Assembly: GCA_041650335.1 (NCBI GenBank) | Contig: JBAZLK010000002.1 | Coordinates: 124,070 to 188,069 of the forward strand | Reading direction: 5' to 3' | DNA length: 64,000 nt | Origin: Patescibacteria group bacterium | GTDB lineage: Bacteria > Patescibacteriota > Patescibacteriia > JAHIZJ01 | In this document: piece by piece, positions 35,519 to 54,882 of the stretch | How the letters are laid out: each line of letters starts with the position of its first letter | Position numbering within the stretch: position 1 is the stretch's first letter | The notes under the pieces: generated by a model | What the model was told of the DNA's origin: nothing | The model's database searches: none | What the model saw: the letters and a program-made list of their open reading frames with translations, nothing else | Program-made: the position numbers and the translations under genes

Positions 35519-36256
35519 TTACATTATCGGGGTGACTGAATTCACTAAAGCATACATTAAGTCAATTTCATCTATGAGACTTTTTGCTGATTTTGGCGGC
35601 TCACCAGAAAGGCTATTAGTGTACGTCTGGAAATCTTGTCTTGAAATTCTAGTGTTTGATGAAAGTGACATAACCAGCGTTTTATCTGGGTCAGCGTTTT
35701 TTCTAAGAAAATATATCTTTGCAATAATTCCAATATCACTGTTCTCCGAAAGATAATCAGGAATATATTTATACGCTGTAAATCCGTTAAATTTGGTATT
35801 TACATCATTGATACTTTTACATTGAGCAAAATCGACCAAGCTTGTAAGATTGTTGCAAGATATATTCTTTAAATCACTAATAGCTGATAGTTCATTCAGC
35901 GTCGGAAATGATGTTTCAAAGGCACAACCGTTATTTAATCGATAGCTCAGCCAGAAAAAATTATTTTGAAGCGTATCGTGCGATAGATAGCCACACGTGA
36001 GATCGGAATCCCAGTCTGTTTTGTTATATTTGGTGAGATCCTGATCAGTGATGTTAAAAAGCGCCTTTGGCAACTTCAAGCTGACGCGAGCGTACGGTAG
36101 ATGAACCTCTTGACCATCGGTCGCAGGCTTGATCGTGACTAAATCGGGCAAGGTGCTTTTCTCGCTTTTTATGCCCTTAGCCAGCCAGAAGAAGCCGGCG
36201 GTAGCCAGTAAGAATAAACCGACCATCAATGAAATGAATAAGCCATTGCTTTTCAT
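35519..36256 (-). CDS. hypothetical secreted protein (AT-rich)
   Basis: Start reassigned to MKSNGLFISLMVGLFLLATAGFFWLA (signal anchor) at 36256. The upstream part of the track ORF overlaps the M23 gene terminator region. Confidence 0.5.
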   Translation of the reverse strand: MKSNGLFISLMVGLFLLATAGFFWLAKGIKSEKSTLPDLVTIKPATDGQEVHLPYARVSLKLPKALFNITDQDLTKYNKTDWDSDLTCGYLSHDTLQNNFFWLSYRLNNGCAFETSFPTLNELSAISDLKNISCNNLTSLVDFAQCKSINDVNTKFNGFTAYKYIPDYLSENSDIGIIAKIYFLRKNADPDKTLVMSLSSNTRISRQDFQTYTNSLSGEPPKSAKSLIDEIDLMYALVNSVTPIM

Positions 36257-36302
36257 GGGAGGGGGATTTAAAAAATGATTATTTCTAACCATATTATGGC
36301 AC

Positions 36303-36346
36303 GAAGAAAAAGGCCGGGGAAGGCAGTTAAAGATAATGCCTTCCCC
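36303..36346 (-). terminator. rho-independent terminator after the M23 peptidase gene
   Basis: Minus sense GGGGAAGGCAttatctttaacTGCCTTCCCC then GGCCTTTTTCTTCG. Confidence 0.65.
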
Positions 36347-36359
36347 GCGGACCCGAATC

Positions 36360-37016
36360 TTAGCAGAAAAAGAAGACAATACAGGCGTAATATTCAGAAT
36401 CACAGAGTGTTGGTATGACAGGATCTCCGTTGGCGTCGAAGTGATCGATGTTTTCGTACCCGACAAGATGAAGATGCGGACCCGAGGAGGTATTCCCAAT
36501 TCTGCCGAGGTACTGCCTGGCCGTGACATACTGTCCCTTCTGGACCGCCGTGGACTGGAGGTGCGCATAACGCAGGGCAACGTGCCGAGCAGGATCATAG
36601 ATCACTACCTGGAGTCCTTGGCCATAACCAGAACCAACTTTCACGACTGTTCCGTTGAACCCGGCGTATACCTTACGGCCAACTCCATGCTCATCCAAAG
36701 TTGTTCCGTCAATCCGGCTGATGTCGCGGGCATAGTAATCAGCCCCTTGATGCGAATTCATCGTTTGCCCGCAGGCATCGATGGTACCGCCTCCGGTCCT
36801 AATACCGCTCATTCCGCGCCAATCATCCGGATCCTCCCCTGGCCCAATCGGCGAAGCGATGCCCATATAGGCACCACGAACCATGGGCATTCCGCTCGAA
36901 AGATCGTCGCTGATCTCTTCGGGCGACGGGTTTGACACTGCCCCCTCCTTCGCGCATCCGACGAGAAACGACAGGGGGAGGGCGAGGATAAGGCAGAAAA
37001 AACTGAACCTCTTCAT
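36360..37016 (-). CDS. M23-family peptidoglycan metalloendopeptidase, lipoprotein
   Basis: Lipobox signal MKRFSFFCLILALPLSFLVGC. M23 motifs HxxxD-like region and HLHLVGYE (HxH). Confidence 0.8.
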   Translation of the reverse strand: MKRFSFFCLILALPLSFLVGCAKEGAVSNPSPEEISDDLSSGMPMVRGAYMGIASPIGPGEDPDDWRGMSGIRTGGGTIDACGQTMNSHQGADYYARDISRIDGTTLDEHGVGRKVYAGFNGTVVKVGSGYGQGLQVVIYDPARHVALRYAHLQSTAVQKGQYVTARQYLGRIGNTSSGPHLHLVGYENIDHFDANGDPVIPTLCDSEYYACIVFFFC

Positions 37017-37121
37017 TAGTTTGCCTCCATTTCAGAAATGCGGCCTCACTCCACTACAACAAGTAACGTGATTCTTCCAGCTCAGGTCTAGCTACCTCCT
37101 TTTTCTAGACCAGGGAAACGG

Positions 37122-37286
37122 GTTGTCGAAAGAACGGGCAATCATTACGGTCTCATACCCCTTTCAGATATGAAAAACCGGCCAATGCCCGTCGCGTTGG
37201 TTCTTGGTAAATAAATAAACGAGCCGTGAAAGCCCACCTCTCTTCACTTACAAAGTGCAAAATCAGTAAGACGCTGCTTATCCACC
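37122..37286 (-). repeat. conserved promoter plus leader element, copy A (upstream of M23 lipoprotein gene)
   Basis: Contains promoter module (rc GGTGGATAAGC ... GAAGAGAGGTGGGCTTTCACGGCTCG) and the ~95-nt leader module (rc CCAACGCGACGGGCATTGGCCGG...GATTGCCCGTTCTTTCGACAAC). Confidence 0.7.
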
Positions 37287-37342
37287 GATGGTCATTTTGA
37301 AGCTATCGCTGTGCTTGCATATTAATCTGTTTGCTCTTCGAA

Positions 37343-37945
37343 TTATTCGTTCACACTAATACTTTCAAGGATCGTGCTATACGTATCACGTACGTTTTCT
37401 AAGTCATCAGCGGTAAAAGTTGAGATTGATCCTGTTGGAGTCGATGGAGCGGTTTGTTCAATGTAGAAATTATACTTATCTCCTTGGTTGTCTTGAAATA
37501 TCGTGCTAATATACACACCAACACCGCTCAGCTTTTCAATACGATAACCTGGTAGTGAATGGAAGGTGATATTTTTAAGCGATGAACGATAGTCATCAGA
37601 TATTATCTGCTCCATATACGATTCTAGACTGGTGGCGTCTCGCGGTATGTTCTTGGTAAGATCATATTCCAGATCTCCAATGGCTGGATGCGTCATGATA
37701 GTAATTTGCCAGCTGGAACCACTAACTGTTTGTGGAACCATATCTGACCCTGTTGGAATACGTAATGTAACATTGTAATCTGTCAAAGTCTTCGTCTCGA
37801 AATCTGCGATGGTATAGTTATTTCTATTATTATTAATAATCGTAGCATTGTCATTTTGATTATTACGACCGTCGAGATAAAGCCACGCACCTACTGTGAT
37901 TGCAGCCATTATTACGACTGACCATAATACAACCTGTTTTTTCAT
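37343..37945 (-). CDS. hypothetical secreted protein (AT-rich)
   Basis: 200 aa with N-terminal signal anchor MKKQVVLWSVVIMAAITVGAWLY. No recognisable domain. Confidence 0.5.
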   Translation of the reverse strand: MKKQVVLWSVVIMAAITVGAWLYLDGRNNQNDNATIINNNRNNYTIADFETKTLTDYNVTLRIPTGSDMVPQTVSGSSWQITIMTHPAIGDLEYDLTKNIPRDATSLESYMEQIISDDYRSSLKNITFHSLPGYRIEKLSGVGVYISTIFQDNQGDKYNFYIEQTAPSTPTGSISTFTADDLENVRDTYSTILESISVNE

Positions 37946-38004
37946 TGTTTTTATAATAATAGTAATTTGTTAGAATAAGGGGAAGTTGGATTCCTCCCCC
38001 TAGT

Positions 38005-38625
38005 TTACCACACATTGTACTGTGAGAGGATATGACCCCACATCGGCAGAACGTGACGAGTAATCCTGTTGGATTCGATGAAATTTGAGTCGATCACATC
38101 CAGTCTTGTCGGATGTCCGACCCCATCCCTTTCCATAACCTGGAAAACGATGGCGGTATGAGGGATTCGTCCACCGGCATTTGATCGTTGAATGACCTGT
38201 CCGGGCCTCACCACGTTGATGCTTCGTGTCGCATAGGCATACCCGCTGGGCAGCGTGACTATCCCACCCGTCGCCCGTGAAACGATGGTGCTCCCAAACG
38301 ACTTACACTGCCCCCCGATGCCGACGCCAAGCCCACGATAATTCCAATCCCCCGCGAACCAGCAACCATCGTTACAGATAATCTCGTCCGAGGCACCCCA
38401 GTCGTTGTTGTTGTAGTGATCTCTCGAGAGAGCGTAGCAGATCTCACGATAGACTGCATACTCCCACTGCTCCGGAAGCTGTGATTGTGGTATTGGGAAA
38501 ATGCCGTTGGGCGGCCATTCCTCCTGTGACTCAGGTGATAACACACCTCCCCTCTTTCCGCAGCCAAGCAATAACCCTCCAGCAATTACCGGCAAGACCT
38601 TCAGAAAATCCCTGCGTGTGTTCAT
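38005..38625 (-). CDS. CHAP-domain-like peptidoglycan amidase/peptidase, Tat-type lipoprotein
   Basis: Start at MNTRRDFLKVLPVIAGGLLLGCG (RR motif plus lipobox). GGAGG SD. Cys/His pair GGQCKSFGSTIV ... PHTAIVFQV resembles the CHAP catalytic dyad. Confidence 0.5.
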   Translation of the reverse strand: MNTRRDFLKVLPVIAGGLLLGCGKRGGVLSPESQEEWPPNGIFPIPQSQLPEQWEYAVYREICYALSRDHYNNNDWGASDEIICNDGCWFAGDWNYRGLGVGIGGQCKSFGSTIVSRATGGIVTLPSGYAYATRSINVVRPGQVIQRSNAGGRIPHTAIVFQVMERDGVGHPTRLDVIDSNFIESNRITRHVLPMWGHILSQYNVW

Positions 38626-38650
38626 CCTCCTCTCCTTTTCTATTGGTAGT

Positions 38651-38752
38651 GTTGTCGAAAGAACGGGCAATCATTACGGTCTCATACCCCTTTCAGATAT
38701 GAAAAACCGGCCAATGCCCGTCGCGTTGGATCTCTTGGTAAAAAAATAAACG
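38651..38752 (-). repeat. conserved leader element, copy B (leader module only; about 25 nt upstream of the CHAP gene start)
   Basis: Near-identical to copies A and C across about 95 nt (gttgtcgaaagaacgggcaatcattacggtctcatacccctttcagatatgaaaaaccggccaatgcccgtcgcgttggatctcttggtaaaaaaataaacga). Confidence 0.7.
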
Positions 38753-38915
38753 AACTGACTTCAGTATAATTTATGGCTCTCGATTATCGACTGATACTAA
38801 TATATGGTTTCTATTGCAGTAATTGCCGTAGAAACCGCGGTCCGATCGCCTTGCTAGCTACCCCATCCGATTGGCCCAGTCTTTTTAGCGGACACACAAC
38901 CACTTCTTCGCTATA

Positions 38916-39557
38916 TTACTTAAGGCTCACCGATTCAGCAATCGTCATCAGCGTTTCTTCAGAAACGTCGTTTGAGATTAGTACCAGTATTTCGTTCGAG
39001 GTAATAAAATACAGGTATTGCCCAACCGCACCGCCAACCCCATTTCCCTGGTGGGTGAGTACAATTGTGTTTAGGCCGACGACGCGCGTTTCGTTTCTGA
39101 CAATAGTTTCACCAGGCATGTTCCGCTCAATCCACGGCGCCAGCCGACCCCATTGGTCAGATGAAATATTTTCATCGTTGGTATAAACTGCCAGGTGCAT
39201 GACGTCGTCCGCAAAGGTATTGAATCCATCGGGCGTATTACGGTTATGCCCCTCACTGGTGTTTTTATTTGTTCGAGAAAAACGAACCAATAAACTCTCT
39301 GTTTTAATTGGCGGCACGACCTGATAAGAAAACTCACTCGGCACGACAAGCGAAAAACCATAGCGAGCACTAATATACGCAGTCGTCTGTCCGGCGCTGT
39401 TTAACGGCCTAAATGCCGGATCGGCTTGCGTTTGACTGAGGCTAATTTGATCGGATGGTTCTGTTTTTGCCCGGCTGACCGCGAAAAGCCAGGCGCCAAG
39501 CACCACTGATAAAACCAGAATGACGGCAAAGGAAATGATGGTTGTTGGTTGTTTCAT
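38916..39557 (-). CDS. hypothetical signal-anchored protein
   Basis: 213 aa, N-terminal TM MKQPTTIISFAVILVLSVVLGAWLFAV. Confidence 0.5.
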   Translation of the reverse strand: MKQPTTIISFAVILVLSVVLGAWLFAVSRAKTEPSDQISLSQTQADPAFRPLNSAGQTTAYISARYGFSLVVPSEFSYQVVPPIKTESLLVRFSRTNKNTSEGHNRNTPDGFNTFADDVMHLAVYTNDENISSDQWGRLAPWIERNMPGETIVRNETRVVGLNTIVLTHQGNGVGGAVGQYLYFITSNEILVLISNDVSEETLMTIAESVSLK

Positions 39558-39639
39558 GGGTTGTATGCTTAATTATAGTTTATTTTATATCGTATCGTCA
39601 GAAAAGGGAAGTCGTTTTCACGGCTTCCAGGTAATCTCA

Positions 39640-40341
39640 CTATCGCCTGACTGGTACATATATCTTCCCCTGCGTAGCCCAGGAAGCCTCAAAGTCACTG
39701 ACCGAAATCTGTCTGTAACAGCCGTACGAGCTTCCCGGATCGTGTAGAATGACGTTTCCGTTCCAGCCAACTGCGAGAACCCAGTGTGCCGTTCCGCCGG
39801 AACTGACGATGCGGCCTTTTTTGATCATGACGCCGCAAATCACGGGATGTCCGTGCGCCACCTCGTTTATCACGTCATTGGCGCGATTGCCATAGTAGAC
39901 GGTGTAATGAAGTCCGTGGAATTCAGTCAGAAGGATGCCCAGGGCGTTTCGTCCGGAGAAGTTAGTGTACCATCCGTTGGGACTGTCGAAACGCGAATCA
40001 TCGAGGCGATCGGCTAAGAACTGATTTTCCGCGGTGATGACCCATGGTTCGACGTAGCCATTGTTAAAGTAGCCGCCCAGCATCACCCCGCAGGCCTGAC
40101 CGCAGTTCTTCGTGTTGTACTGATCGCCGGGCGGGAACTGGCGGAGCCAACGCATGTTGAGATGGAAACAGTAGCCAGGGTAGTCTGCCAGCAAACCGAC
40201 AATCGGTGCCAGTGAGTCCGGCAGCAACTGCTCTCCCGAGTGATCAACGGGTTCGGTTGATACGGCCTGCTCCTGCCCGCACCCCATAATTAACGTAAGG
40301 GGGAGAGCGAGAATAAGGCAGAAAAAACCGGAGCGTTTCAT
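39640..40341 (-). CDS. C39-like (papain-fold) cysteine peptidase domain lipoprotein
   Basis: Start at MKRSGFFCLILALPLTLIMGC (paralogous to the M23 signal peptide). Cys region NCGQACGVMLGGY and His region AHWVLAVGW resemble the Peptidase_C39-like catalytic dyad. Confidence 0.5.
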   Translation of the reverse strand: MKRSGFFCLILALPLTLIMGCGQEQAVSTEPVDHSGEQLLPDSLAPIVGLLADYPGYCFHLNMRWLRQFPPGDQYNTKNCGQACGVMLGGYFNNGYVEPWVITAENQFLADRLDDSRFDSPNGWYTNFSGRNALGILLTEFHGLHYTVYYGNRANDVINEVAHGHPVICGVMIKKGRIVSSGGTAHWVLAVGWNGNVILHDPGSSYGCYRQISVSDFEASWATQGKIYVPVRR

Positions 40342-40462
40342 TGGATTTACCTCCCTGTCGTACCGAACGACAGTGGTTGAGATGATGAGCAATAACACAC
40401 CCTGAAACCGAGACTCAACGCCTCCTTTTCCTCCTTTCTTAATAGAGACAGTAGCGATAGGT

Positions 40463-40638
40463 ATTGTCAAAAGAACGGGCAATCATTACGGTCTCATACC
40501 CCTTTCGGATATGCAAAACCGGCCAATGCCCGTCGCGTTGGATCTCTTGGTAAAAAAATAAACGAGCCGTGAAAGCCCGTCTTCTTTCTGCCTTTAGTAT
40601 GCGCCATCAATAATACCTGTCAATGTAGCTTATCCACC
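40463..40638 (-). repeat. conserved promoter plus leader element, copy C (upstream of C39-like lipoprotein gene)
   Basis: Has both modules. Promoter module rc GGTGGATAAgctacaTTGACA-17 nt-ATACTA then AGAAAGAAGACGGGCTTTCACGGCTCG; leader module as in copies A and B. Confidence 0.7.
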
Positions 40639-40662
40639 GACGGCTTTATGACGCGACGGCTG

Positions 40663-40698
40663 ATAAAAAAACGGACCACATGGTCCGTTTTATTTATT
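40663..40698. terminator. bidirectional rho-independent terminator
   Basis: AAAAAAACGGACCACATGGTCCGTTTTATTTATT. Confidence 0.7.
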
Positions 40699-40709
40699 AC
40701 TGCCTCGAC

Positions 40710-41336
40710 TTATTCGAGTTTTACGCTGTCAAAAATATCGCTCACCGTCTGACTCGCTTTGAGATAGGTAGCCGAGTCGGGATTTGGGTCAAATATTTCG
40801 GCTCGGATCTGCCAGATACCTGTTCCGGTCTGGATATAATAGGTGTGATATGAATCCGTGATCGGATTGCCCTGGAACCAAATCCATTGGCGGATGCCGA
40901 TATTCCCGTCGCGGTCATCCCGGGTACGGACTTTTTCGTTCGCTGTTTCGGATTTCGCATTGATAAAATCAGGCAATGAAAGATTTTCGGCGTTTGGCTC
41001 TTTGCTAATCGCCAGTCTGATAAGCGATTCAGTCACGTCTTGCTTCGAGAGCGGATCAGTGATGGTCGCCTGTTCAGTCGACTCAAGTTCGCCCACCGTC
41101 GTCGAGCCGTTTTCAGCCGAAATCGAAAGAAGCGTCAGATTTTTTGGGTACATGAAGGTAATTCCCTGCGCTTGGAACGTTTCGGTCAGCGGCGGCACTT
41201 CCGTATTTCTGTTTGTTTTCACAGAGCACATCGTGGTGGCGAAGCTCGGCACTGATTGCAAGCCATACATCACCGCCGCACCCCCGGTGAGCGCCGCCAG
41301 TAGAAAAATGACAAAGTACCAAAAATTTTTACGCAT
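40710..41336 (-). CDS. hypothetical secreted protein
   Basis: 208 aa with signal anchor MRKNFWYFVIFLLAALTGGAAVMYG. Confidence 0.5.
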   Translation of the reverse strand: MRKNFWYFVIFLLAALTGGAAVMYGLQSVPSFATTMCSVKTNRNTEVPPLTETFQAQGITFMYPKNLTLLSISAENGSTTVGELESTEQATITDPLSKQDVTESLIRLAISKEPNAENLSLPDFINAKSETANEKVRTRDDRDGNIGIRQWIWFQGNPITDSYHTYYIQTGTGIWQIRAEIFDPNPDSATYLKASQTVSDIFDSVKLE

Positions 41337-41466
41337 ACATAGCTATTTTAATGCCAAATGGTCAATATTCCCATATATTTGCGCTCCTGACGAACGGCAT
41401 GGGCGGCTTTTCGTGCTTGATAATAGTATACTACACTTATAATTTTTTTCATATGATATTTTCCCA

Positions 41467-41499
41467 GCAATAAAACGGGCACGAACTTGCGTTCGCGCC
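41467..41499 (-). terminator. rho-independent terminator after the 913-aa gene
   Basis: Minus sense GGGCGCGAACGCAAGTTCGTGCCC then GTTTTATTG. Confidence 0.55.
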
Positions 41500-41528
41500 C
41501 AGAGGACGTTTGTGCGATGTTTGTTTTC

Positions 41529-44270
41529 CTAACGGACCACGATCAGCCGGCGCTCGGATTGTTCGATGCCTGACCGGACGCGGCAGAAGTAGATGCCGCT
41601 CGCTACCCGCTGACCCTGATCGTCGCGGCCGTTCCAGATAATGGCCTGGGGTCCGGACGGCAGCTCGCCAGTGAACAGCGTCTGCACCCGCCGGCCGGAT
41701 ACGTCGTAGATCTCGACAGCCACCGGTTTCGCCTGGTTAAGGGTGAAGGAGATAGTCGTCGAGGGGTTGAGGGGATTCGGCGTGGCGGATAGCGTCTTGG
41801 CCATGCTGGCCGACGCCGACTGCCGCCACTGGACGCTGATGTCCCTCAGCCAGACTGAACCAGCGTCCTGGCCGAGGTAGAAGATGAGCTTCGCGGCCGG
41901 GTCGGTGACTTCCGGCCAGAACGGCAGGACGATCGGCTGATCGGCCGAGGCCAGAGTGAGATTGACGCCTTGCCACAGCGGCTTGGCACCGTTCGAACAC
42001 TCGATCACAGCCGTGATCGCGCACGGCGGATTAGCCGCGCCGGTAAAAACGAGCTCGCACGCGCTTCCGGCCTGCGTGTAAACCCAGTCCTGCGTGAGAG
42101 AAAGCTCGTGCCACTGCCGGGCATGGTCCACGCTCACTCTGAGAGTGTGATCGTCCTGGACCACCGGCACCAGCCAGTCGAGACCGGCCGGCTTGGTGAA
42201 TTGCCAGCAGTCAAGGCCGCGGGTGAAGCTGCCGTTGCTGATGAAGCTGCCCGGATCATCCTCGCCCGTGCAGGTTGGAGGTGGCGGGGGTGGTGGAGGC
42301 GGCGGACTGTCGTCAGACACGAGCCGGATATTGCGGATCCGGAACATGCTTCCGCCGGTCTCGCCGAACGCCCAGGTCAGCTTCGCCGTTGAAGCAGTCC
42401 TGGTAACGGTGATGGGAAAACGGTGCTCTTCCCAGCCGCCCGGCGACTGGCGATAATCCTGCCACAAACCGCAGTTGACGTACTGGCCGTTCACCTGCAC
42501 GGTCAGACCGAGCATAGTGTGGACGGTCCGCACGCTCTGCTGTTCATAGCTCAGGATCAGCTTCTCGCCGGCCGTGATCCGGGGCAGGGTTTGTGACAGC
42601 TGGACGCTCCAGATGTCGGCATTCCCGTGCATGACGAATTCGGCCATGGGCGTCGCCAGATTAATGTCGCAGTGCTCGGTCGGCCAGATCGGCGTTTCCC
42701 AGCAGTCGAGACAGCTCTCGAAGCTTCCGTTTGCGATAAGGTTGTCAGGAGAACGATAGCACTCGTCTGCCCCAGCCTTGGCCATCTTGTTCTCGTCCAC
42801 GCACCGGCTCAAGTCGATCTCGGAAACGGAATGTCCGTCCGTCTCTAAACGCCAGTGCTTGCCGCTTCGATGTTCGTAGAAGTCCTGGGTAATTTTACCG
42901 TCCATCTCGAACTGATCGGTGGTCGGATACCCAAACCTGTCTACGTCGCCGTGGCTTTCGAAATACGCCAGGATATTCCTGTCGTAGACGCAGTGGGCTT
43001 CAGCCGTACAGGAGTTATGGATAGCGCCGGCCGGATCATAGAAGATGATTGCCTTGGACCCGTCCGGACGCCTGAAGTCCTGAACGTCATAGCCGTCCCA
43101 GTTGTGGACCCGAGCCGTGCCGCTTCCGCCTGGAATAGCATGACCCAGATTCTGGGAGCCGCCGTTCCGGTTGTAGCACTCGGCAAAGAGATAGCTTGAT
43201 TCTGGGTGCCAGCCATTTTCGTAGTAGCCGGGGGCGCAGTTGGGATACCAGGCGAAATGCGGCAGACCATTGGCCCAGAGCATCACACCGTCCGTGCACT
43301 CCTGGATAGCGGAGATGCCGTCAAGCCGCGTAACGGCGTTCTCTTTGTAGTTTTGCTTGTAGTAACTTCGGAGATTCGATGGTACGTTGCTCTCGTCCCG
43401 GATCGGCATCTTGGCCGGGCATCTCGGGCCGCCACGCTGCGTCCAGAAAGTCCATAGGCCTGAATGCAAGACAATCGCGGCTCTGGCTCCTCCCAGCGCA
43501 TCGTAAACGATGGCGTTATCGCCGAAGAACCCGCCGTTGAAGTGCCAGATAGCGCAATTCTTCGGCATGCCCCGAGCGTCGTAGAGATCATTCGGATCCC
43601 AGGCGTAGTACCAGGGATGGCTGGAATTAGCCCGACGGGCTGCGTCCAAATCCCACATCTGATACTCAGGGTAACCAATCATGGCCGAGCCGTAGCGACT
43701 GTAAGCCTGGTCAAACAGGGCGGTGTTGCGGGAAACAACAATACTGCCATAGATAGGATTTCCACCGTCCGAAAAGCTTGATGAGATCGACTGGCCGTTT
43801 GGGTTGTCGCCTTGTTGTCGCTGATAATGGAGATGCGCGTTGTATCTTCCATCGGCATCACCCATCAAGCCGATTACCTGGCCAGCTTTTACCTCTTCAC
43901 CAGGCTTGACGAACAACTTCTCTAGATGTCCATTCAAACCCTCATCTTCTTCCGCGCCCTTGTAGCGAATAACCGCGCAGTTACCCCAATCGTCTTGGCC
44001 AGGTCGGTAATCCTGGGCATAAACAACCACTCCATCTTCAGTTGCGACGATGGGATAACCAATGTTTCGCTCCCTATAAAGTCCATTAACACAGAAATCC
44101 CACGCGAACTCAAGCTTGCTGCCTCGAAGATGGGTTGGGGTATCAGCGTTTCCTTGCCCACAAACCAATACAGTGCCACCGATGACGGGGAGATTCTGTT
44201 CAGCTACTGACGCGGATGAATACACAAAACCAAGCACCAAAAACAACCCCAGGATCGATGCTGACTTCAT
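41529..44270 (-). CDS. large secreted multidomain protein: N-terminal M23 peptidase domain, central beta-rich region, poly-Pro linker, C-terminal Por/FlgD-Ig-like sorting-type tail
   Basis: Signal peptide MKSASILGLFLVLGFVYSSASVA. M23 motifs (GTVLVCGQGN..., HLHYQ). An 11xPro run. The last ~85 aa, SATPNPLNPSTTISFTLNQAKPVAVEIYDVSGRRVQTLFTGELPSGPQAIIWNGRDDQGQRVASGIYFCRVRSG..., match the T9SS/FlgD-like C-terminal domain pattern. Confidence 0.7.
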   Translation of the reverse strand: MKSASILGLFLVLGFVYSSASVAEQNLPVIGGTVLVCGQGNADTPTHLRGSKLEFAWDFCVNGLYRERNIGYPIVATEDGVVVYAQDYRPGQDDWGNCAVIRYKGAEEDEGLNGHLEKLFVKPGEEVKAGQVIGLMGDADGRYNAHLHYQRQQGDNPNGQSISSSFSDGGNPIYGSIVVSRNTALFDQAYSRYGSAMIGYPEYQMWDLDAARRANSSHPWYYAWDPNDLYDARGMPKNCAIWHFNGGFFGDNAIVYDALGGARAAIVLHSGLWTFWTQRGGPRCPAKMPIRDESNVPSNLRSYYKQNYKENAVTRLDGISAIQECTDGVMLWANGLPHFAWYPNCAPGYYENGWHPESSYLFAECYNRNGGSQNLGHAIPGGSGTARVHNWDGYDVQDFRRPDGSKAIIFYDPAGAIHNSCTAEAHCVYDRNILAYFESHGDVDRFGYPTTDQFEMDGKITQDFYEHRSGKHWRLETDGHSVSEIDLSRCVDENKMAKAGADECYRSPDNLIANGSFESCLDCWETPIWPTEHCDINLATPMAEFVMHGNADIWSVQLSQTLPRITAGEKLILSYEQQSVRTVHTMLGLTVQVNGQYVNCGLWQDYRQSPGGWEEHRFPITVTRTASTAKLTWAFGETGGSMFRIRNIRLVSDDSPPPPPPPPPPTCTGEDDPGSFISNGSFTRGLDCWQFTKPAGLDWLVPVVQDDHTLRVSVDHARQWHELSLTQDWVYTQAGSACELVFTGAANPPCAITAVIECSNGAKPLWQGVNLTLASADQPIVLPFWPEVTDPAAKLIFYLGQDAGSVWLRDISVQWRQSASASMAKTLSATPNPLNPSTTISFTLNQAKPVAVEIYDVSGRRVQTLFTGELPSGPQAIIWNGRDDQGQRVASGIYFCRVRSGIEQSERRLIVVR

Positions 44271-44405
44271 GACCGGTTACCTCCTTCCGCATTGCGGATA
44301 CAAACATGTCAATGTGCTAACACCCTCTCAATTTCGAGAGGCCTTTCACTACCTGCTAACAGGCGGCGAAAGCGCTCTCGAAATGAAAATGTGTCGTTTC
44401 GCTTC

Positions 44406-45563
44406 TTACTCAGCTTTCAGGCTAAACATAATAGTATTAAACACATCGAGCATATCGTAATCAAACCAGGCCCCGAGTGAAATATTTATCAGATTTTCAT
44501 TCAGCTGGATATATGCTTCACGATGTATAGCATTTCCGGCATATTCATATTGGTATGCCTTCCCGCTTAGCGGTTGAGGAAGGTCGATTAGCTGATCATT
44601 AATACCCTTATCTCTTATCCATTTTTCCAGATCATTTGGTTTCGTTTTTTCCCATGAAATCGCAAATATGGGAGTTTCTGTCTCTCTATCAATATATTCT
44701 TTTTTTGTGATGTATAACGTATTTCCCTCCTGGTTTCTAATACCGTAATCAGAGGGATAAAGGAAAAAAAAGCCAAGCTCGCTATTCGTATACTTCTGCC
44801 AATTTGCCGTATCCAGTTTTGTACTCAGATCAAAGGCCATGTTGTTTGTAAATTCCAGACTTCGAGCGATCTGGTCGGCGGTATTGAGCAGGTTTTCATC
44901 GCCAGACAACACGACCGCTGAAAGTTCTAACACCTGTTGATTGTGTTTTATATAGTAGTTTGTTATTTTACCATCTAGCCATTCTGTATCGACTTGAACT
45001 TTCGGTGTTTTTCCGGTCGTGATTTTTTCGATTATGGCATCGTTACCGTCAATTGCCGTTTGCTCCGTTGTGACATCAAAATATATATCTCTGCGATTAA
45101 CTTTTAAATATTCGTCAAACCACCCTGTTAAACTTAAACTTGATATCTTGTAGACATGAACATCAACATTAATCTCACCCTTTTGAGGATGGTATACGTC
45201 TAGATTTTCAGAATAATTTTGAATGTATGCCGTTTGAATTCCTTGTGTTACTAATTGCACTTCTTCATCATTATCAATTTGGACAAGTTGCCACTCTTTC
45301 GGAAATTTCAATCTATAACTATATTTATCGTTTGTGTATATGTTCCAACCCGTCACCGGATCAATCGTAATGTTAACGTTGGTGTTCTGATTTGTTGTAT
45401 TTGTGTTTGCATTACCATTCACATTGCTATTGATATTCTGATTTGAATTAGTATTGATTTTTTTGTTAAATCCCCACCACACTGCGCCTCCAGCCAAGAT
45501 GATAACAATAACAATCAAGACAATGGCGATTGCAGAGACTCCTTTGTTGTTAAATTTCTTCAT
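44406..45563 (-). CDS. hypothetical membrane-anchored protein with Asn-rich low-complexity region (AT-rich)
   Basis: 385 aa. TM MKKFNNKGVSAIAIVLIVIVIILAGGAVWW, then NTNSNQNINSNVNGNANTNTTNQNTN. Confidence 0.5.
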   Translation of the reverse strand: MKKFNNKGVSAIAIVLIVIVIILAGGAVWWGFNKKINTNSNQNINSNVNGNANTNTTNQNTNVNITIDPVTGWNIYTNDKYSYRLKFPKEWQLVQIDNDEEVQLVTQGIQTAYIQNYSENLDVYHPQKGEINVDVHVYKISSLSLTGWFDEYLKVNRRDIYFDVTTEQTAIDGNDAIIEKITTGKTPKVQVDTEWLDGKITNYYIKHNQQVLELSAVVLSGDENLLNTADQIARSLEFTNNMAFDLSTKLDTANWQKYTNSELGFFFLYPSDYGIRNQEGNTLYITKKEYIDRETETPIFAISWEKTKPNDLEKWIRDKGINDQLIDLPQPLSGKAYQYEYAGNAIHREAYIQLNENLINISLGAWFDYDMLDVFNTIMFSLKAE

Positions 45564-45800: not shown

Positions 45801-48572
45801 TTATTCTACCGGCAGAGTAAATATAAACGTGCTCCCCTTGCCCAAACCTTCGCTCTCGACCCAGATCTGTCCGCCGTGGGCGTCGACGATGCGCTTGGCA
45901 ATATAGAGACCGAGACCGGACCCGTCCGGCTGGACTTGGGCGATGCCCTCCCCGCGGACAAACTTCGTGAACAGCCGCTTGGCGTCATCCGGCGGGATAC
46001 CGCGGCCCGTGTCCTTCACGGAAACGCTGATATTGCCGTTGATCTTCTGAACCGAAACCGTGACGCTGCCCTGCGGTGTGTATTTTATCGCGTTATCGAC
46101 GAGATTCAAAATGACGTCTTTCAATTTATCCGAATCAACCATCAGGGCGGGCAGTTTTTTGGCCGGCTTTTTGTATTCCAGCTTGAGGCCTTTTTCCTCA
46201 GCCACCTTGATGATTTCGATCAATTCGGTCTGGATCAGTTCTTCGATTTGCGCCGGTTTCTTATCGAGTACGAATTTACCCGCCTCGATCTTCGTAATAT
46301 TGAGGAATAAATTTACCATCCGGACCATGCGCTTGCTCGCATCCAGCACTTGTTTCAAAATATTCAGTTTTTCTTCGTCAATCTTTCCGAAATCGCCGTC
46401 CACCAGCATGGACAGCCAGCCCTGGATGCCGGTCAGCGGGGTGCGCAATTGGTGCGAGGCGATGGAGATAAACTCGTTCTTCGCCTCGTCGAGCTGTTTC
46501 AAATGATCGTTCGCCTTGGCCAGCTCGGTATTCGTCAGCCGTAGCTCCTCGACCAACTTCAGATTCCTAGTGACAATACCCATCTGATCGGCCAGCGACT
46601 CCATCATCTGGATCTCGTCCTCAGATACTTCTTTCTTGGATTTTTGGATGACAAACACGATCGATCCGATGATCTCCTTTTCCGAGAAAATCGGCGCGGC
46701 CACGATCGTCTTCGCGCCCACGAGCTTTTGCATAGCATAGCAGATCGGCTTTGGAATCGGCGGGGACAGGAAATCAGATAGCGATTCGCTGATCTGGATA
46801 TTTCCCGTGCGGATTGCCTCCGTCGCCAGATCCTTATCCGCCATCGTGCCGCTGTATTGTTCGAGCTGTTTGGGCAGGAGTTTGACCGCGGCTTGAGTGA
46901 TTTTTGTCATCGTGATGGCCACCGGATGCGTTTTTTCACCTTCTCCGCGTAAAATAATAACCCCCCCGATGTACCCCAGCTCATTGGCGATGCCGTCAAC
47001 GATCGCCTGGGTAACCTTCTTGAAGTCGAGCGACCGAGTGATGATATTGCCGATACTCTGGAGAGCGTTCAAGTAGACATTCCGGTTCTTTAGCTCCACG
47101 TTGGCCATCTGAAGATCGGCCGTGGCGTGCTCGACCTCAACCTTCAGCTTTTCACTGAATGATTTTACCTCGTCATAGAGCCGCGACTTCTCGATCGCCG
47201 ACCCCATGAGCGGGCTCAAGACTTCGAGCAGTTTCAGGTCGTTTCCGCTATAGACATCGCCGGATCGCTTCTGGCCCAGCACATAGAGGCCAGTCACCTC
47301 GCCCTCGAGCATGATCGGCGCGATCACTGCCGCGCCCGTGGCTTTTACCTCAGCTAGTGATTTCTCGAGCTGTTTGCGCTCGCGTTCATCGGCCGTATCG
47401 GAGATTTTTCGCTCAAGCTCTTCGAGGACAACCACTTTTTCGGTTTTTTGAACGTATTTGGCGACCGAGCCATTCGCATCGACGCGCGTATTATTACCGT
47501 TACCGTTGTTATTTCTACGCTTGCTGTATGACTGTTTGTTTTTCGTGAGCAATAATATGTCCGCATATTTGATTTTCAGAATACTGGCGAGCTTCCACTC
47601 CACTGACGACAGCAGATCATCGAGCTCGATCTTCACACTGACCATTTCGGTCAGTATCTGGGTGGCTTCGGTATAGTCCACCTCGCCTTTGAAGAATATT
47701 GCATCGGTAATTTTTGCCAGTAAACGCTTCAACGGATCAAAACCGAAAACTATTACAAGCGAGACAAGGATAGTCGCGAGAAACCCCGACCCGCCAAGCT
47801 CTTGGATAAAAAGACCGGTCAGAAACGTAGCTGAAGTGAAAGCAAACGTAGTAAAAAGAATGAGAAAGAAATAGATAATGGAGCGAGATATAACCACCCT
47901 AATATCAAACAATCTGTGTTTGACGATTGCATAGGCGGTAATAATCGCATAAATGAAAACAAAATAATTACCAACAGGATAAATATTTAATCTAAAATCT
48001 AGTAAAAAATTTGTAGATCCACCAACAAATCCAATCAATGACGCGACAAACATGTATAATAACTGTTGTGATCTGAGACCAAGAGCTTTTTTATATTCAA
48101 TATATATATTTCTGATACTCCAAAAAACGACTGCAACAAAATATATAAGAAATGTTGGGTATATGCTTCCAGTTTTTACCGGCCAATAGCCAAAATATGT
48201 CCTGGGACTCACTTGCTCGATAAACAATTTAGAAAAAACGAGAATCGAAAATATTACCGAAATGACATACAAAAAAATAGTAATATACAAGTATTTCTTT
48301 TTTGTCCTGCCGGTTAATACAACGCTATAACGAAAAAATACGGCGGGTAATAACGCAGTACCAATATACAACAACCTTTGCCAAATCAATGCCTGATCAG
48401 AGTTATTAGCAATGACGGTACCGAATAAACCTATAGTCCATATTGAAGTTACACAACTGACAAGAAACCATATTTGATTTAATTCTTTCTTCCTATTTCC
48501 AAATAAAACAAACAGTCCTAGTGCAACAGTTAATATCGCGGTTAAAAGACAGGTATACGCAAAAGTGTTCAT
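45801..48572 (-). CDS. sensor histidine kinase with N-terminal 7TM sensor module and GAF domains
   Basis: 923 aa. The first ~300 aa are multi-TM. H-box FISIASHQLRTPLTGIQGWLSML, N/G boxes (NLVDNAIKYT, DTGRGI, GSGLGLYI). Confidence 0.8.
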   Translation of the reverse strand: MNTFAYTCLLTAILTVALGLFVLFGNRKKELNQIWFLVSCVTSIWTIGLFGTVIANNSDQALIWQRLLYIGTALLPAVFFRYSVVLTGRTKKKYLYITIFLYVISVIFSILVFSKLFIEQVSPRTYFGYWPVKTGSIYPTFLIYFVAVVFWSIRNIYIEYKKALGLRSQQLLYMFVASLIGFVGGSTNFLLDFRLNIYPVGNYFVFIYAIITAYAIVKHRLFDIRVVISRSIIYFFLILFTTFAFTSATFLTGLFIQELGGSGFLATILVSLVIVFGFDPLKRLLAKITDAIFFKGEVDYTEATQILTEMVSVKIELDDLLSSVEWKLASILKIKYADILLLTKNKQSYSKRRNNNGNGNNTRVDANGSVAKYVQKTEKVVVLEELERKISDTADERERKQLEKSLAEVKATGAAVIAPIMLEGEVTGLYVLGQKRSGDVYSGNDLKLLEVLSPLMGSAIEKSRLYDEVKSFSEKLKVEVEHATADLQMANVELKNRNVYLNALQSIGNIITRSLDFKKVTQAIVDGIANELGYIGGVIILRGEGEKTHPVAITMTKITQAAVKLLPKQLEQYSGTMADKDLATEAIRTGNIQISESLSDFLSPPIPKPICYAMQKLVGAKTIVAAPIFSEKEIIGSIVFVIQKSKKEVSEDEIQMMESLADQMGIVTRNLKLVEELRLTNTELAKANDHLKQLDEAKNEFISIASHQLRTPLTGIQGWLSMLVDGDFGKIDEEKLNILKQVLDASKRMVRMVNLFLNITKIEAGKFVLDKKPAQIEELIQTELIEIIKVAEEKGLKLEYKKPAKKLPALMVDSDKLKDVILNLVDNAIKYTPQGSVTVSVQKINGNISVSVKDTGRGIPPDDAKRLFTKFVRGEGIAQVQPDGSGLGLYIAKRIVDAHGGQIWVESEGLGKGSTFIFTLPVE

Positions 48573-50578: not shown

Positions 50579-50640
50579 ACCATTTAATTAAATTATTATA
50601 TATTAAAATTCTTTATAAAACATATAGGACAAAGATCCAA

Positions 50641-53617: not shown

Positions 53618-54154
53618 TTATTGTACTTTTTCAATCTCATTGGTTAATTTGGTCTTCGCATATTCCGTGCCAGCCTCGTCGCGAAAGATATTACCCGGCA
53701 GTGCAGTGAAAATCGCCTGCATCGTTGAAAGCGGGGTGTATGCCTGTAAATCATCGCGATAATACAGATAGAGCAGGCGCTCATCGCCGGGTTTGAGGTT
53801 CTGTCCGCCTTGGGTGTCGGCGATGACGACGAGATTTCCATTTTCACCCCCAAGAATTGACACAATAAGTTTTTTCGACGCAGTTCCCTTCCAGACTTCC
53901 TGCGGCTCCACCTGCCAATCCGTGTAAATCATTTTCTCTCCCGTATCTTTCTCGAAGACTTCCCGGACATTGCTCGAGATGAATCGGCCGGTAAGAACAA
54001 TCTGTGATTCTTTTGCCAGATCGGCTGGCGTAAGTGTCACCTCTAACTTGCTAACACTTGTGGTAGGTTTATCGCCGCGCAGTGCGATTATCGCAATGAG
54101 ACTTCCGATAATAAACACGCCGGCCAAACCAATGATGATTGTTCGCTTTTTCAT
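53618..54154 (-). CDS. hypothetical secreted protein
   Basis: 178 aa, signal anchor MKKRTIIIGLAGVFIIGSLIAIIAL. Confidence 0.45.
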   Translation of the reverse strand: MKKRTIIIGLAGVFIIGSLIAIIALRGDKPTTSVSKLEVTLTPADLAKESQIVLTGRFISSNVREVFEKDTGEKMIYTDWQVEPQEVWKGTASKKLIVSILGGENGNLVVIADTQGGQNLKPGDERLLYLYYRDDLQAYTPLSTMQAIFTALPGNIFRDEAGTEYAKTKLTNEIEKVQ

Positions 54155-54172
54155 ATTTTTTTACATAAAGTA

Positions 54173-54736: not shown

Positions 54737-54806
54737 CTTGTACCCTTTTCCACCCGTCATATTAATTATAGCTATGTCAATGGATAATTGGAAATAAAGC
54801 AAAAAA

Positions 54807-54882
54807 CGAGCCCGAAAGCCCGTCTCTTTCTAACACTAGAATACTCTCTACGTATATTATGTCAACTACCTGTTATCCACCC
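54807..54882 (-). repeat. conserved promoter element, copy D (upstream of secreted metalloprotease gene)
   Basis: rc GGGTGGATAAcaggtagTTGACA-16 nt-TATTCT-agtgtt-AGAAAGAGACGGGCTTTCGGGCTCG. Confidence 0.65.

What the first reader, a model, noticed from the sequence alone, without database searches (positions are those of the whole stretch)
35519..45563. Accessory island enriched in secreted peptidoglycan hydrolases with mosaic GC content
Within 10 kb lie an M23 lipoprotein, a CHAP-like Tat lipoprotein, a C39-like cysteine peptidase lipoprotein, a 913-aa M23 fusion protein and five further secreted hypothetical proteins. Strongly AT-rich genes (35519-36256, 37343-37945, 44406-45563) sit between high-GC ones, and each transcription unit has its own terminator. 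For an organism with a minimal biosynthetic repertoire, a battery of exported lytic enzymes suggests host cell-wall remodelling (epibiotic or predatory lifestyle) or competition.
Basis: partly seen in the sequence, partly recalled or inferred. Interest (0 to 1): 0.6.

Follow-up and report, generated by a model that had tools for sequence, protein, structure and literature searches.

The report
Cell-wall hydrolase and partner gene cassettes
A tiny-genome (Patescibacteria) bacterium carries a row of gene pairs, each a membrane-tethered cell-wall-cutting enzyme followed by a membrane-anchored partner, one of which is modelled with the fold of known 'immunity' proteins; three pairs share one repeated control sequence, and the layout recurs across the group but differs between close relatives.

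Summary
The cluster is real. The window comes from a Patescibacteria MAG, and 35519-45563 holds nine co-directional genes. Both M23 calls pass Pfam. The 'CHAP-like' Tat lipoprotein (D) has no Pfam hit, but it models as an NlpC/P60-CHAP fold with an invariant Cys and His. The C39-like call falls just under Pfam's cut-off.

The five 'secreted hypotheticals' are not filler. Each follows a hydrolase and carries an N-terminal membrane anchor. One (C) models as a Mog1/PsbP fold, closest to the type VI immunity proteins TplEi and Tsi3. The pairings B-A, D-C and C39-E recur in distant Patescibacteria.

Three cassettes (F-E, D-C, B-A) start with copies of one ~110-nt leader. In other lineages the repeat also covers the signal peptide and linker, so different catalytic domains sit on the same head.

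A congeneric relative lacks F, E, D and C and has different genes in place of B and A; its I counterpart is diverged and shorter.

The GC mosaic is real but follows gene class (enzyme GC-rich, partner AT-rich) in nearly every lineage examined, and it is not confined to the island.

Best reading: swappable hydrolase plus cognate inhibitor/immunity cassettes. Whether they target the host's wall or the cell's own is unresolved.

The parts
35519..36256 (-). A: 245-aa signal-anchored partner protein, downstream of B (AT-rich, 38.8% GC)
   Evidence: ORF and NCBI start. 22-residue uncharged N-terminal segment. A homologue (33% id, 3e-29) directly follows the B homologue in distant locus L055. No Pfam hit.
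36360..37016 (-). B: 218-aa M23 metallopeptidase lipoprotein
   Evidence: PF01551 55.4 bits. HxxxD (HQGAD) and HxH (HLH) present; lipobox LVGC. The first 39 aa are 51% identical to F.
37120..37239 (-). Leader copy 1, upstream of B: hairpin plus T-run (37217-37239), then a conserved long hairpin
   Evidence: Repeat family D1. 55-nt core exact match, 0 expected by chance. Alignment A1; fold; terminator-like site. GGTGGATAA box at 37278-37286.
37343..37945 (-). C: 200-aa signal-anchored partner of D, Mog1/PsbP fold (38.8% GC)
38005..38625 (-). D: 206-aa Tat-signal lipoprotein, divergent NlpC/P60-CHAP-fold cysteine peptidase
38649..38757 (-). Leader copy 2, upstream of D
   Evidence: 92.9% identical to the relative's single copy, the match extending into the RBS and first codons. 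Promoter-like TCGATA-16-TATACT at 38763-38790.
38916..39557 (-). E: 213-aa signal-anchored partner of F
   Evidence: 24-residue uncharged segment. Similar (7.5e-7) to the N-half of the 387-aa protein that follows a C39_2 gene in L018. Fold not determined.
39640..40341 (-). F: 233-aa C39-like cysteine peptidase lipoprotein
   Evidence: PF13529 23.4 bits against cut-off 24, aligned over the whole profile. PHROG endolysin family 2e-4. Lipobox IMGC.
40461..40660 (-). Leader copy 3 plus promoter region upstream of F. In order: GCCGTCG-N9-GCCGTCG dyad (40638-40660), GGTGGATAA box (40630-40638), TTGACA-16-CATACT (40596-40623), hairpin plus T-run (40560-40582), conserved long hairpin (40461-40559)
   Evidence: The same dyad-box motif stands upstream of lipoprotein hydrolase genes and ssb in other Patescibacteria.
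40710..41336 (-). G: 208-aa signal-anchored partner downstream of H
   Evidence: 95% identical in the relative. 36% identical (2.5e-27) to the C-half of the L018 protein that follows C39_2. Full-length hhalign to the I family, E = 2e-4. Own terminator at 40668-40691.
41529..44270 (-). H: 913-aa Sec-signal M23 peptidase with repeated middle domains, a poly-Pro linker and a C-terminal FlgD-Ig / T9SS type A sorting-like domain (58.5% GC)
   Evidence: PF01551 52.9 bits, PF13860 43.7 bits. TIGR04183 33.2 bits against cut-off 23. HxH present but no HxxxD. 72% identical to the relative's 1064-aa protein, which has one extra repeat. Terminator at 41476-41501.
44406..45563 (-). I: 385-aa signal-anchored protein with two PsbP-like domains, upstream of H (36.9% GC)
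   Evidence: PF18933 26.6 bits against cut-off 27. Relatives in L014 and L015 give full-length sub-threshold PsbP_2 matches. An I-like gene precedes the large M23 gene in L001, L017 and L049.
45801..48572 (-). Neighbouring sensor kinase (HisKA_7TM + GAF + HisKA + HATPase). Possible regulator; link not shown
   Evidence: Pfam. HisKA_7TM genes also flank hydrolase arrays in L017, L022, L055 and L056.
53618..54881 (-). A further pair outside the flagged interval, with the same promoter/hairpin module: secreted M10/matrixin-like peptidase (54173-54802) and a 178-aa membrane-anchored protein (53618-54154)
   Evidence: PF00413 30.9 bits. GGTGGATAA at 54873-54881, TTGACA at 54860-54865, hairpin GACGGGCTTTCGGGCTCGTTT at 54804-54824.

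Best explanation
The locus is an array of cassettes. Each encodes an exported, mostly lipid-tethered cell-wall peptidase followed by a membrane-anchored extracytoplasmic partner.

Shown:
- The enzymes are two M23, one divergent NlpC/P60-CHAP and one C39-like peptidase.
- F-E, D-C and B-A are close-set pairs (59-103 nt apart) with no predicted terminator between them.
- Each of these three pairs is headed by a copy of one ~110-nt leader.
- Enzyme family and partner family travel together across distant Patescibacteria.
- Partner C has the Mog1/PsbP fold.
- The set of cassettes differs between congeneric genomes.
- In other lineages the repeated head covers the leader, signal peptide and linker, with different catalytic domains behind it.

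Inferred:
- The enzymes leave by Sec (B, F, H) or Tat (D) and are lipidated at the lipobox Cys, so they sit on the outer face of the membrane.
- Each partner binds and restrains its own enzyme, as an immunity protein or inhibitor. This protects the producer's peptidoglycan while the enzymes cut the wall of the attached host or of neighbours.
- The shared head keeps the cassettes co-regulated and gives a homologous stretch at which new catalytic domain plus partner units can be recombined in.
For: - Domains.
- Export signals.
- Operon layout: (no terminator-like site inside the pairs; hairpin plus T-run at the 5' edge of each leader).
- Leader repeats: 3 copies, 86-100% identical, 0 expected by chance. 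There is a single copy in the relative, whose homology breaks exactly at the leader's 3' end.
- Shared heads elsewhere: in L011 an M23 gene and a D-family gene share 563 identical nt (-425 to +138), i.e. leader, signal and 46 aa. In L018 a C39_2 gene and a D-family gene share 94% over -225 to +135. In the window, B and F share a 51%-identical lipoprotein signal. D and the relative's Tat-M23 share leader and Tat signal.
- Cognate pairing: B->A in the window and L055; D->C in the window and L018; C39->E-like in the window and L018; H->G in the window and L001.
- Rapid partner turnover: 7 and 2 detectable relatives for C and G.
- Variability between ~90%-identical genomes.
- Precedent: signal-peptide or lipobox + linker + toxin domain with a membrane or lipoprotein immunity gene is a described class of simple polymorphic toxin system (bioRxiv 10.1101/2025.01.14.632903). 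Envelope-degrading enzymes are proposed host-attack tools in Patescibacteria (PMC11665869).
Against: - No binding, inhibition or lytic activity has been shown.
- Only C was modelled. E and A could not be linked to that fold.
- D-family genes are followed by different partner families in different lineages: C-like, I-like, or a beta-propeller.
- H and G are separated by a terminator-like hairpin.
- Lipoproteins stay on the producer, and no delivery system lies nearby.
- The promoter dyad/DnaA-box-like motif is shared with ssb. That fits cell-cycle housekeeping as well as it fits attack.
- The arrays are widely conserved in the phylum rather than sporadic.
Confidence: 0.45

Rival explanations
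1. These are housekeeping autolysins with regulators. The enzymes remodel the bacterium's own wall for growth, budding or division, and the partners are membrane-anchored regulators or scaffolds. The model is LytE/CwlO with IseA or FtsEX in Bacillus, or PcsB-FtsEX. The host is not the target.
For: - The organism makes peptidoglycan: murJ at 11306-12928 and ftsE/ftsX at 3578-5226.
- The enzymes are tethered to the producer's own membrane.
- The arrays are conserved across many Patescibacteria, often next to ssb.
- The promoter motif, which includes a DnaA-box-like TGTGGATAA, also heads ssb genes. That would suit cell-cycle control.
- G is 95% conserved between species.
Against: - Cassette content differs between congeneric genomes: F, E, D, C, B and A are all absent from the relative, and non-homologous enzymes sit behind the same leader.
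- Catalytic domains are swapped on identical heads.
- Partners evolve extremely fast.
- Redundancy is fourfold, or fivefold with the M10 pair.
- H-family genes sit beside a large serine recombinase and a defence system in L029.
Confidence: 0.3
2. The neighbours have no specific functional link. PsbP-like membrane-anchored proteins are simply very common in Patescibacteria surface-protein regions, and the alternation is a by-product of clustering exported genes.
For: - Similar anchored proteins occur elsewhere in the window, at 25838-26380 and 53618-54154.
- The partner family after D is not constant.
- E and A have no assignable fold.
Against: - Three enzyme-partner family pairs are co-inherited across genomes that share only 27-46% protein identity.
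- 4 of 4 hydrolases in the island, and the M10 peptidase outside it, are each followed by such a protein.
- Gaps inside the pairs are short and free of terminators.
Confidence: 0.12
3. The region is a remnant of a prophage or other mobile element, with lysis genes, recently acquired from outside the phylum. The reader's mosaic GC and the T9SS-type tail would point to an FCB-group donor.
For: - M23 domains match phage endolysin and tape-measure PHROGs.
- H carries a T9SS type A sorting-like domain and has the highest GC.
- An IS200-like Y1 transposase fragment lies in the relative's locus (L004).
- One D-family member sits beside a T4SS coupling protein in a 62% GC contig.
Against: - There are no phage structural, integrase or recombinase genes in or next to the island.
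- Full-length relatives of H and D are, as far as labelled, almost all patescibacterial.
- B, D and F have the GC3 of the core genes.
- Flanking synteny with the relative is intact.
Confidence: 0.04

Closest known systems
Type VI secretion peptidoglycan-hydrolase effector/immunity pairs (Tse1-Tsi1, Tse3-Tsi3, Tae-Tai families)
   Different: There is no T6SS or any dedicated injector here. Export is by Sec/Tat with lipid anchoring. The producer is presumably a single-membrane epibiont (own knowledge). There is no sequence homology to any Tsi or Tai family.
Simple polymorphic toxin systems: signal peptide or lipobox + unstructured linker + toxin domain, with a membrane or lipoprotein immunity gene (Burroughs et al., bioRxiv 10.1101/2025.01.14.632903; Zhang et al. 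2012, from memory)
   Same: The architecture matches. D's first ~40 residues are disordered. Heads are conserved while C-terminal domains vary. A membrane-anchored downstream partner is present. Cassettes stand in tandem.
   Different: The toxin heads here are peptidoglycan peptidases (M23, CHAP-like, C39-like), not the lipid-targeting Lipocone domains treated in that preprint. The conserved head extends upstream into a non-coding leader and promoter. Immunity function is unproven.
Pneumococcal fratricide module CbpD-ComM within the competence regulon (own knowledge)
   Same: It has a secreted CHAP-type murein hydrolase, a membrane immunity protein, and co-regulation with an ssb gene through a shared promoter element. 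Here the dyad/GTGGATAA motif heads both lipoprotein hydrolase genes and ssb.
   Different: No sequence relationship exists. ComM is a polytopic CAAX-type protein, not a PsbP fold. No competence sigma factor or cin-box is known here. The parallel is an analogy only.
Gram-positive autolysin/regulator pairs (LytE/CwlO-IseA, FtsEX-PcsB/CwlO/RipC)
   Same: NlpC/P60 or CHAP enzymes are controlled by a protein partner at the membrane. D matches LytE (in complex with IseA), CwlO and RipA structurally.
   Different: Those genes are conserved single copies and usually not adjacent as enzyme-inhibitor cassettes. They show no head sharing and no cassette turnover.
Patescibacterial VanZ-2 operon with either a papain-like or a Gly-Gly peptidase on the same N-terminal region, plus a Lamin-tail-domain protein (same preprint)
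   Same: It has the same phylum and the same theme of alternative peptidase heads on one N-terminal module. LTD/PKD proteins lie near the D-family arrays in L014-L016, L023, L025 and L027.
   Different: That system has a coiled-coil membrane anchor, an ABC transporter and VanZ. None of these is in the island here.

Membership tests
Peptidase M23 (PF01551) | Profile score above Pfam's gathering cut-off | tested here: met
   B 55.4 bits and H 52.9 bits against 28.7.
Peptidase M23 (PF01551) | Zinc-ligand motifs HxxxD and HxH | tested here: inconclusive
   B has HQGAD and HLH. H has HLH but no HxxxD, and its N-terminal 70 aa differ from the relative's. H may be a variant or inactive.
NlpC/P60-CHAP superfamily (gene D) | Match to a family profile (PF05257 or PF00877) | tested here: not met
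   No Pfam, NCBIfam or PDB-sequence hit for D or for its family profile. Two distant family members hit CHAP at 20.7 and 22.9 bits, below the cut-off of 26.
NlpC/P60-CHAP superfamily (gene D) | Papain-like alpha+beta fold | tested here: met
NlpC/P60-CHAP superfamily (gene D) | Conserved catalytic Cys and His | tested here: met
   C107 (GGQCK) and H156 (HTAIV) are invariant in 20 sequences, together with D176, D179 and N181. Their geometry in the model was not inspected.
Peptidase_C39_2 (PF13529; gene F) | Profile score above the gathering cut-off | tested here: not met
   23.4 bits against 24. The alignment spans profile positions 3-142 of 143. Cys (NCGQAC) and His (AHWV) are seen by eye only.
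Bacterial lipoproteins | Lipobox with Cys after a short hydrophobic region near the N-terminus | tested here: met
   B LVGC21, F IMGC21, D LLGC22. Presence of lgt/lspA in the genome was not tested.
Tat substrates | (S/T)RRxFLK motif before the hydrophobic region | tested here: met
   D has TRRDFLK at residues 3-9. tatA/tatC in the genome were not tested.
T9SS type A cargo (gene H) | C-terminal sorting domain TIGR04183 | tested here: met
   33.2 bits against cut-off 23. PF18962 scores 25.3 against 27.
T9SS type A cargo (gene H) | A type IX secretion machine and an outer membrane in the organism | not testable with these tools
   None is encoded in the 64-kb window. Patescibacteria are generally held to lack an outer membrane (own knowledge). 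The domain is more likely used as an Ig-like module.
Effector-immunity / polymorphic toxin systems | Conserved N-terminal trafficking head with varying C-terminal toxin domains | tested here: met
   L011: identical head on an M23 and a D-family domain. L018: 94% identical head on C39_2 and D-family domains. Window: B and F signals are 51% identical; D and the relative's M23 share leader and Tat signal.
Effector-immunity / polymorphic toxin systems | Immunity gene immediately downstream, co-inherited with its toxin family | tested here: met
   B-A (window, L055), D-C (window, L018), C39-E (window, L018). The D family also occurs with other partner families.
Effector-immunity / polymorphic toxin systems | The immunity protein binds and neutralises its toxin; the toxin harms target cells | not testable with these tools
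   No complex prediction or experiment was available.
Mog1/PsbP-fold proteins (partners) | Fold, or a PF18933 match | tested here: inconclusive
Integron gene cassettes | Adjacent integrase; attC hairpins of varied sequence at the 3' end of each cassette | tested here: not met
   No integrase lies in or beside the island. The repeats are near-identical and stand 5' of the enzyme genes. There is none after the last cassette.
Known cis-regulatory RNA families (Rfam 15) | Covariance-model match | tested here: not met
   Nothing relevant at E <= 10 in 36900-40800, nor in L015, L016, L023 or L060.

The most novel reading that the evidence does not exclude
Patescibacteria carry a phylum-wide, previously undescribed system of swappable cassettes. 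Each cassette pairs a Sec/Tat-exported lipoprotein peptidoglycan hydrolase with a PsbP-fold membrane immunity protein. Cassettes are exchanged by recombination at a shared promoter, leader and signal 'head'. They are co-regulated with ssb by a dedicated dyad/DnaA-box-like promoter and structured leaders. In effect this would be a fratricide-like programme in which the epibiont opens the host's (or a neighbour's) wall to obtain DNA and nutrients while shielding its own.
Probability: 0.2. Interest if true: 0.8.

Novelty: new variant of a known kind. Interest (0 to 1): 0.6.

Why it matters
How ultrasmall epibiotic bacteria breach or remodel cell walls is an open question, and only a few genes have been tied to it. 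This locus offers concrete, testable units:
- four enzyme-partner pairs, one with a new CHAP-like family and one with an immunity-like fold;
- a shared leader;
- a promoter motif that also heads ssb.

If the partners are inhibitors, the cassettes would be a delivery-machine-free form of effector-immunity system. They would also be a marker of host-interaction diversity between strains. If the enzymes are instead autolysins, the locus would define the division-hydrolase control system of a phylum that lacks the usual one. Either way, the conserved promoter and leader motifs give a first handle on a patescibacterial regulon.

Tried and rejected
- Rfam on the leaders: no family found.
- Exact-pattern scans for the window's leader core in GTDB species genomes and JGI metagenomes: no hits. 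The leader is known only from this genome and one congeneric species.
- A sigma-70-like promoter inside the conserved leader: none found by eye. The best candidates lie upstream of the hairpin plus T-run.
- Integron attC or REP/RAYT-type elements: rejected. There is no integrase, only three copies, all 5' of hydrolase genes. A Y1 transposase fragment exists only in the relative's L004.
- Prophage origin: rejected.
- BLAST among the five partners: no similarity. Small-profile hhalign links only G-I and weakly C-G.
- Word-based homologue search for G: only 2 hits.
- Profile search of the D family against PDB sequences: nothing.
- RNAalifold on the CGUGGGUC hairpins: failed, because MAFFT misaligned the 5' arms. 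Pair types were counted by script instead, on a set pre-selected for pairing.
- Short upstream ORFs after the upstream SD-like box: present in some leaders, but not conserved in sequence or start codon. Not pursued.
- GC mosaic as proof of recent foreign origin: rejected, because the same enzyme-high/partner-low pattern holds in 13 of the 14 other loci measured (12 of 13 distinct; and the per-ORF GC listing).
Full report
WHAT IS THERE

The window is part of a 368,560-bp contig of a Patescibacteria MAG. All nine island proteins are identical to NCBI entries MFA5107174-MFA5107182. Nearly every gene in the window is on the minus strand. In the direction of transcription the island reads as follows.
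- I (45563-44406): 385 aa.
- H (44270-41529): 913 aa.
- G (41336-40710): 208 aa.
- leader, then F (40341-39640) and E (39557-38916).
- leader, then D (38625-38005) and C (37945-37343).
- leader, then B (37016-36360) and A (36256-35519).

The flanks are a HisKA_7TM-GAF histidine kinase upstream (45801-48572) and an alpha/beta hydrolase, pgk, eno and iPGM downstream.

CHECKING THE DOMAIN CALLS

- B and H pass Pfam M23. B has both zinc motifs. H has HxH but no HxxxD.
- H also carries a FlgD-Ig / T9SS type A sorting-like C-terminal domain (TIGR04183 33.2 bits against 23).
- F reaches 23.4 bits on Peptidase_C39_2, whose cut-off is 24, over the whole profile. It also hits one PHROG endolysin family.

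D represents a family that the libraries do not cover.

CHECKING THE EXPORT SIGNALS (pattern-based; no SignalP was available)

- B and F have lipoboxes at Cys21.
- D has TRRDFLK followed by a lipobox.
- H has a Sec-type signal ending ASVA.
- A, C, E, G and I have 20-25-residue uncharged N-terminal segments and no further membrane segments. That pattern indicates signal anchors.

THE 'HYPOTHETICALS' ARE PARTNERS

Each hydrolase is followed by one of the anchored proteins. The partners show no BLAST similarity to each other, but their relatives keep the same position elsewhere.
- C resembles the gene right after the D homologue in L018 (4.5e-15).
- E and G resemble the two halves of the gene right after a C39_2 gene in L018 (7.5e-7 and 2.5e-27).
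- A resembles the gene right after a B homologue in L055 (3e-29, with B itself 40% identical).
- I-like genes precede the large M23 gene in L001, L017 and L049.

The partners evolve very fast. C has 7 detectable relatives among 1.84 billion representatives, and G has 2 hits.

Many arrays also hold a membrane-anchored beta-propeller protein after the PsbP-like one (sequences).

THE REPEATED HEAD

A ~110-nt element stands upstream of B, D and F. The copies lie at 37120-37235, 38649-38757 and 40461-40575 and are 86-100% identical. The 55-nt core is found three times, with none expected by chance.

Read along the minus strand, the element begins with a short G+C hairpin and a T-run. That is a terminator-like feature, and it may end the preceding cassette. 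Next comes a long imperfect hairpin, GACGGGCA...UGCCCGUUC, followed by a CU-rich stretch and a Shine-Dalgarno box.

Upstream of the F copy, in order, are a GCCGTCG-N9-GCCGTCG dyad, a GGTGGATAA box and a TTGACA-16-CATACT promoter-like site. The same box, promoter and hairpin also precede a secreted M10-like peptidase at 54173-54802. That gene too is followed by an anchored protein.

B and F share a 51%-identical signal peptide.

Other lineages repeat the principle with their own sequences.
- In L011 an M23 gene and a D-family gene share 563 identical nucleotides, covering the leader, the signal and 46 residues of linker.
- In L018 a C39_2 gene and a D-family gene share 94% over -225 to +135.
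- L015 has a 73-nt shared leader.

The L011 and L018 leaders are homologous to each other. Their first hairpin keeps its pairing with a different inner stem.

No Rfam family matches. I cannot tell whether the window's long hairpin acts as RNA or as paired DNA boxes, because its arms resemble the upstream GCCGTCG boxes in inverted orientation.

COMPARISON WITH A RELATIVE

A congeneric species (L001-L010) is about 90% identical in the flanks. It has kinase - 86 aa - 232 aa (I-like, 44% identical) - 1064-aa M23 (72%) - G (95%) - leader - a different Tat-signal M23 - a 381-aa propeller protein - hydrolase - pgk.

Homology breaks exactly at the 3' end of the leader and resumes before the alpha/beta-hydrolase gene. 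So F, E, D, C, B and A are specific to this genome. The H-G core is shared.

The region upstream of the kinase also differs. The window has an AT-rich coaB / transglutaminase-like / coaC block there; the relative has a methyltransferase and a 433-aa protein.

COMPOSITION

The alternation is real: enzymes are 53.5-58.5% GC and A, C and I are 37-39%. However, B, D and F have the GC3 of eno and pgk (0.58-0.66), so the AT-rich partners are the outliers.

The same enzyme-high/partner-low pattern, including at third codon positions, holds in L001, L011, L014-L016, L018, L019, L021, L023 and L025-L027. These loci have background GC between 36% and 47%. In L017 (51% GC) the gap is only about 7 points at both GC and GC3.

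GC extremes also occur elsewhere in the window. The mosaic is therefore a property of the gene classes. It is not evidence that the island is foreign. Its cause is unexplained: amino-acid bias, faster drift of the partners towards AT, or separate histories.

HOW WIDESPREAD

D-family genes sit in similar arrays in 15 further contigs, usually near ssb and an LTD/PKD protein.

A metagenome scan was run for the dyad plus box motif, GCCGTCG-N9-GCCGTCG-N0-10-GTGGAWA. It gave 70 hits, and the second gap peaks sharply at 8-9 nt (42 of 70). Among 30 low- to mid-GC hits, the first downstream gene is:
- a lipoprotein in 15, including homologues of B, of C39_2 and of D;
- ssb in 6;
- other kinds of gene in 9.

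The motif's last part equals the DnaA-box consensus in reverse complement (own knowledge).

INTERPRETATION

The best-supported reading is an array of cassettes, each holding a surface-tethered wall peptidase and a cognate binding partner, with shared heads that allow co-regulation and recombinational exchange.

The partner is most simply an inhibitor or immunity protein. Position, co-inheritance, fold and turnover support this; there is no direct evidence.

The architecture matches the simplest class of polymorphic toxin system described in bioRxiv 10.1101/2025.01.14.632903. Attack on the host envelope by secreted enzymes is a standing hypothesis for Patescibacteria (PMC11665869; see also PMC12102498).

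The main rival is own-wall autolysins with regulators. It is favoured by the lipid tether, by the murJ and ftsEX genes in the window and by the link to ssb. It is disfavoured by the cassette turnover and the domain swapping.

I put the two readings at about 0.45 and 0.30.

VERDICT

- The 'accessory island of foreign composition' framing is only partly right.
- The real content is a conserved yet plastic enzyme-partner cassette system with a repeated regulatory head.
- It is a new variant of known effector-immunity or autolysin-regulator designs, not a new category.

Noticed in passing
window 40630-40660 (minus strand); also L001 10678-10700, L014 5781-5803, L015 1731-1753, L016 2351-2373, L023 2566-2586, and about 42 of loci L030-L099: A tripartite motif, GCGCCGTCGC-N7-GCGCCGTCG-N8/9-(T/G)GTGGA(T/A)AA, lies just upstream of promoter-like sites. 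Its last part equals a DnaA box in reverse complement. In metagenome contigs it precedes lipoprotein hydrolase genes (15 of 30) and ssb (6 of 30). It is a candidate patescibacterial regulon signal.
   Followed up: partly
L014 5891-5922; L015 1862-1902 and 3882-3915; L016 2459-2485; L021 442-470; L023 2701-2729, 4332-4365 and 5563-5596; L032, L037, L055, L060, L076 and L082 (coordinates): Hairpins with 8-14-bp stems of differing sequence share a conserved loop ending (A)CGUGGGUC. Most of those listed lie 44-92 nt upstream of lipoprotein genes, including a homologue of B. Many stems pair an SD-like UAAGGAG with CUCCUUA. There are 18 distinct 5' arms; the set was selected for pairing. No Rfam match was found in the four loci tested. 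The motif is not present in the window itself.
   Followed up: partly
window 53618-54881: A secreted M10/matrixin-like peptidase and a following 178-aa anchored protein have the same GGTGGATAA box, TTGACA promoter and GACGGGCTTTC..GGCTCGTTT hairpin as the island cassettes. The regulon therefore extends beyond the flagged interval.
   Followed up: partly
window 41529-41800 (C-terminus of H); also L017 1391-3667 and L029 4737-7322: A T9SS type A sorting-like / FlgD-Ig C-terminal domain occurs on M23 proteins of Patescibacteria, which are not expected to have an outer membrane or a T9SS.
   Followed up: partly
window 45801-48572, 50641-51324, 52049-53509; L017 6394-7739; L022 4191-6558; L055 8047-10878; L056 9127-11148: HisKA_7TM sensor proteins, often as tandem paralogues, recur next to hydrolase arrays in several lineages. 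In L017, L055 and L056 they stand with homologous ~240-aa genes; the L017 member carries precomputed FeeM/autoinducer-synthase Pfam hits.
   Followed up: no
window 47894-50640 compared with L001 352-3029: A second strain-variable block lies here. The window has AT-rich (32-35% GC) coaB, a transglutaminase-like gene and coaC, plus a different 7TM N-terminus on the kinase. The relative has a methyltransferase and a 433-aa protein.
   Followed up: no
All related loci (L001, L011, L014-L019, L021, L023, L025-L027): Adjacent enzyme and partner genes differ by about 7-22 GC points, and by up to ~40 points at third codon positions, whatever the genome's background GC. The gap is smallest in L017. The cause is unknown.
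   Followed up: partly
L020 5836-6474: A D-family member (60% identical to D) sits in a 62% GC contig beside a T4SS coupling protein (TrwB/TraG-like). It is the only non-patescibacterial-looking context found, and it suggests a link to conjugation-type wall hydrolases.
   Followed up: partly
L021, L022, L023: Contigs deposited as 'uncultured Gammaproteobacteria' carry patescibacteria-like gene content: the D family, ssb plus an LTD protein, HisKA_7TM paralogues, and 39-47% GC. They are probably mis-binned or mislabelled.
   Followed up: no
L029 2206-11046: An H-family M23 protein lies between a large serine recombinase and a pair of genes resembling the Gabija defence system (AAA_15 ATPase plus UvrD helicase). 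That is a mobile or defence-island context.
   Followed up: no
window 21454-22015: The RNase P RNA match spans 562 nt against a 367-position model, so it carries large insertions.
   Followed up: no
window 12929-13726: About 800 nt between murJ and the next gene have no long ORF and no Rfam match. A perfect TGTGGATAA lies at 13161-13169 on the plus strand.
   Followed up: partly
L004 5338-5658 (and the 86-aa ORF at L001 5398-5658): A fragment of an IS200/IS605-type Y1 transposase lies between the kinase and the I-like gene in the relative. It is absent from the window.
   Followed up: no
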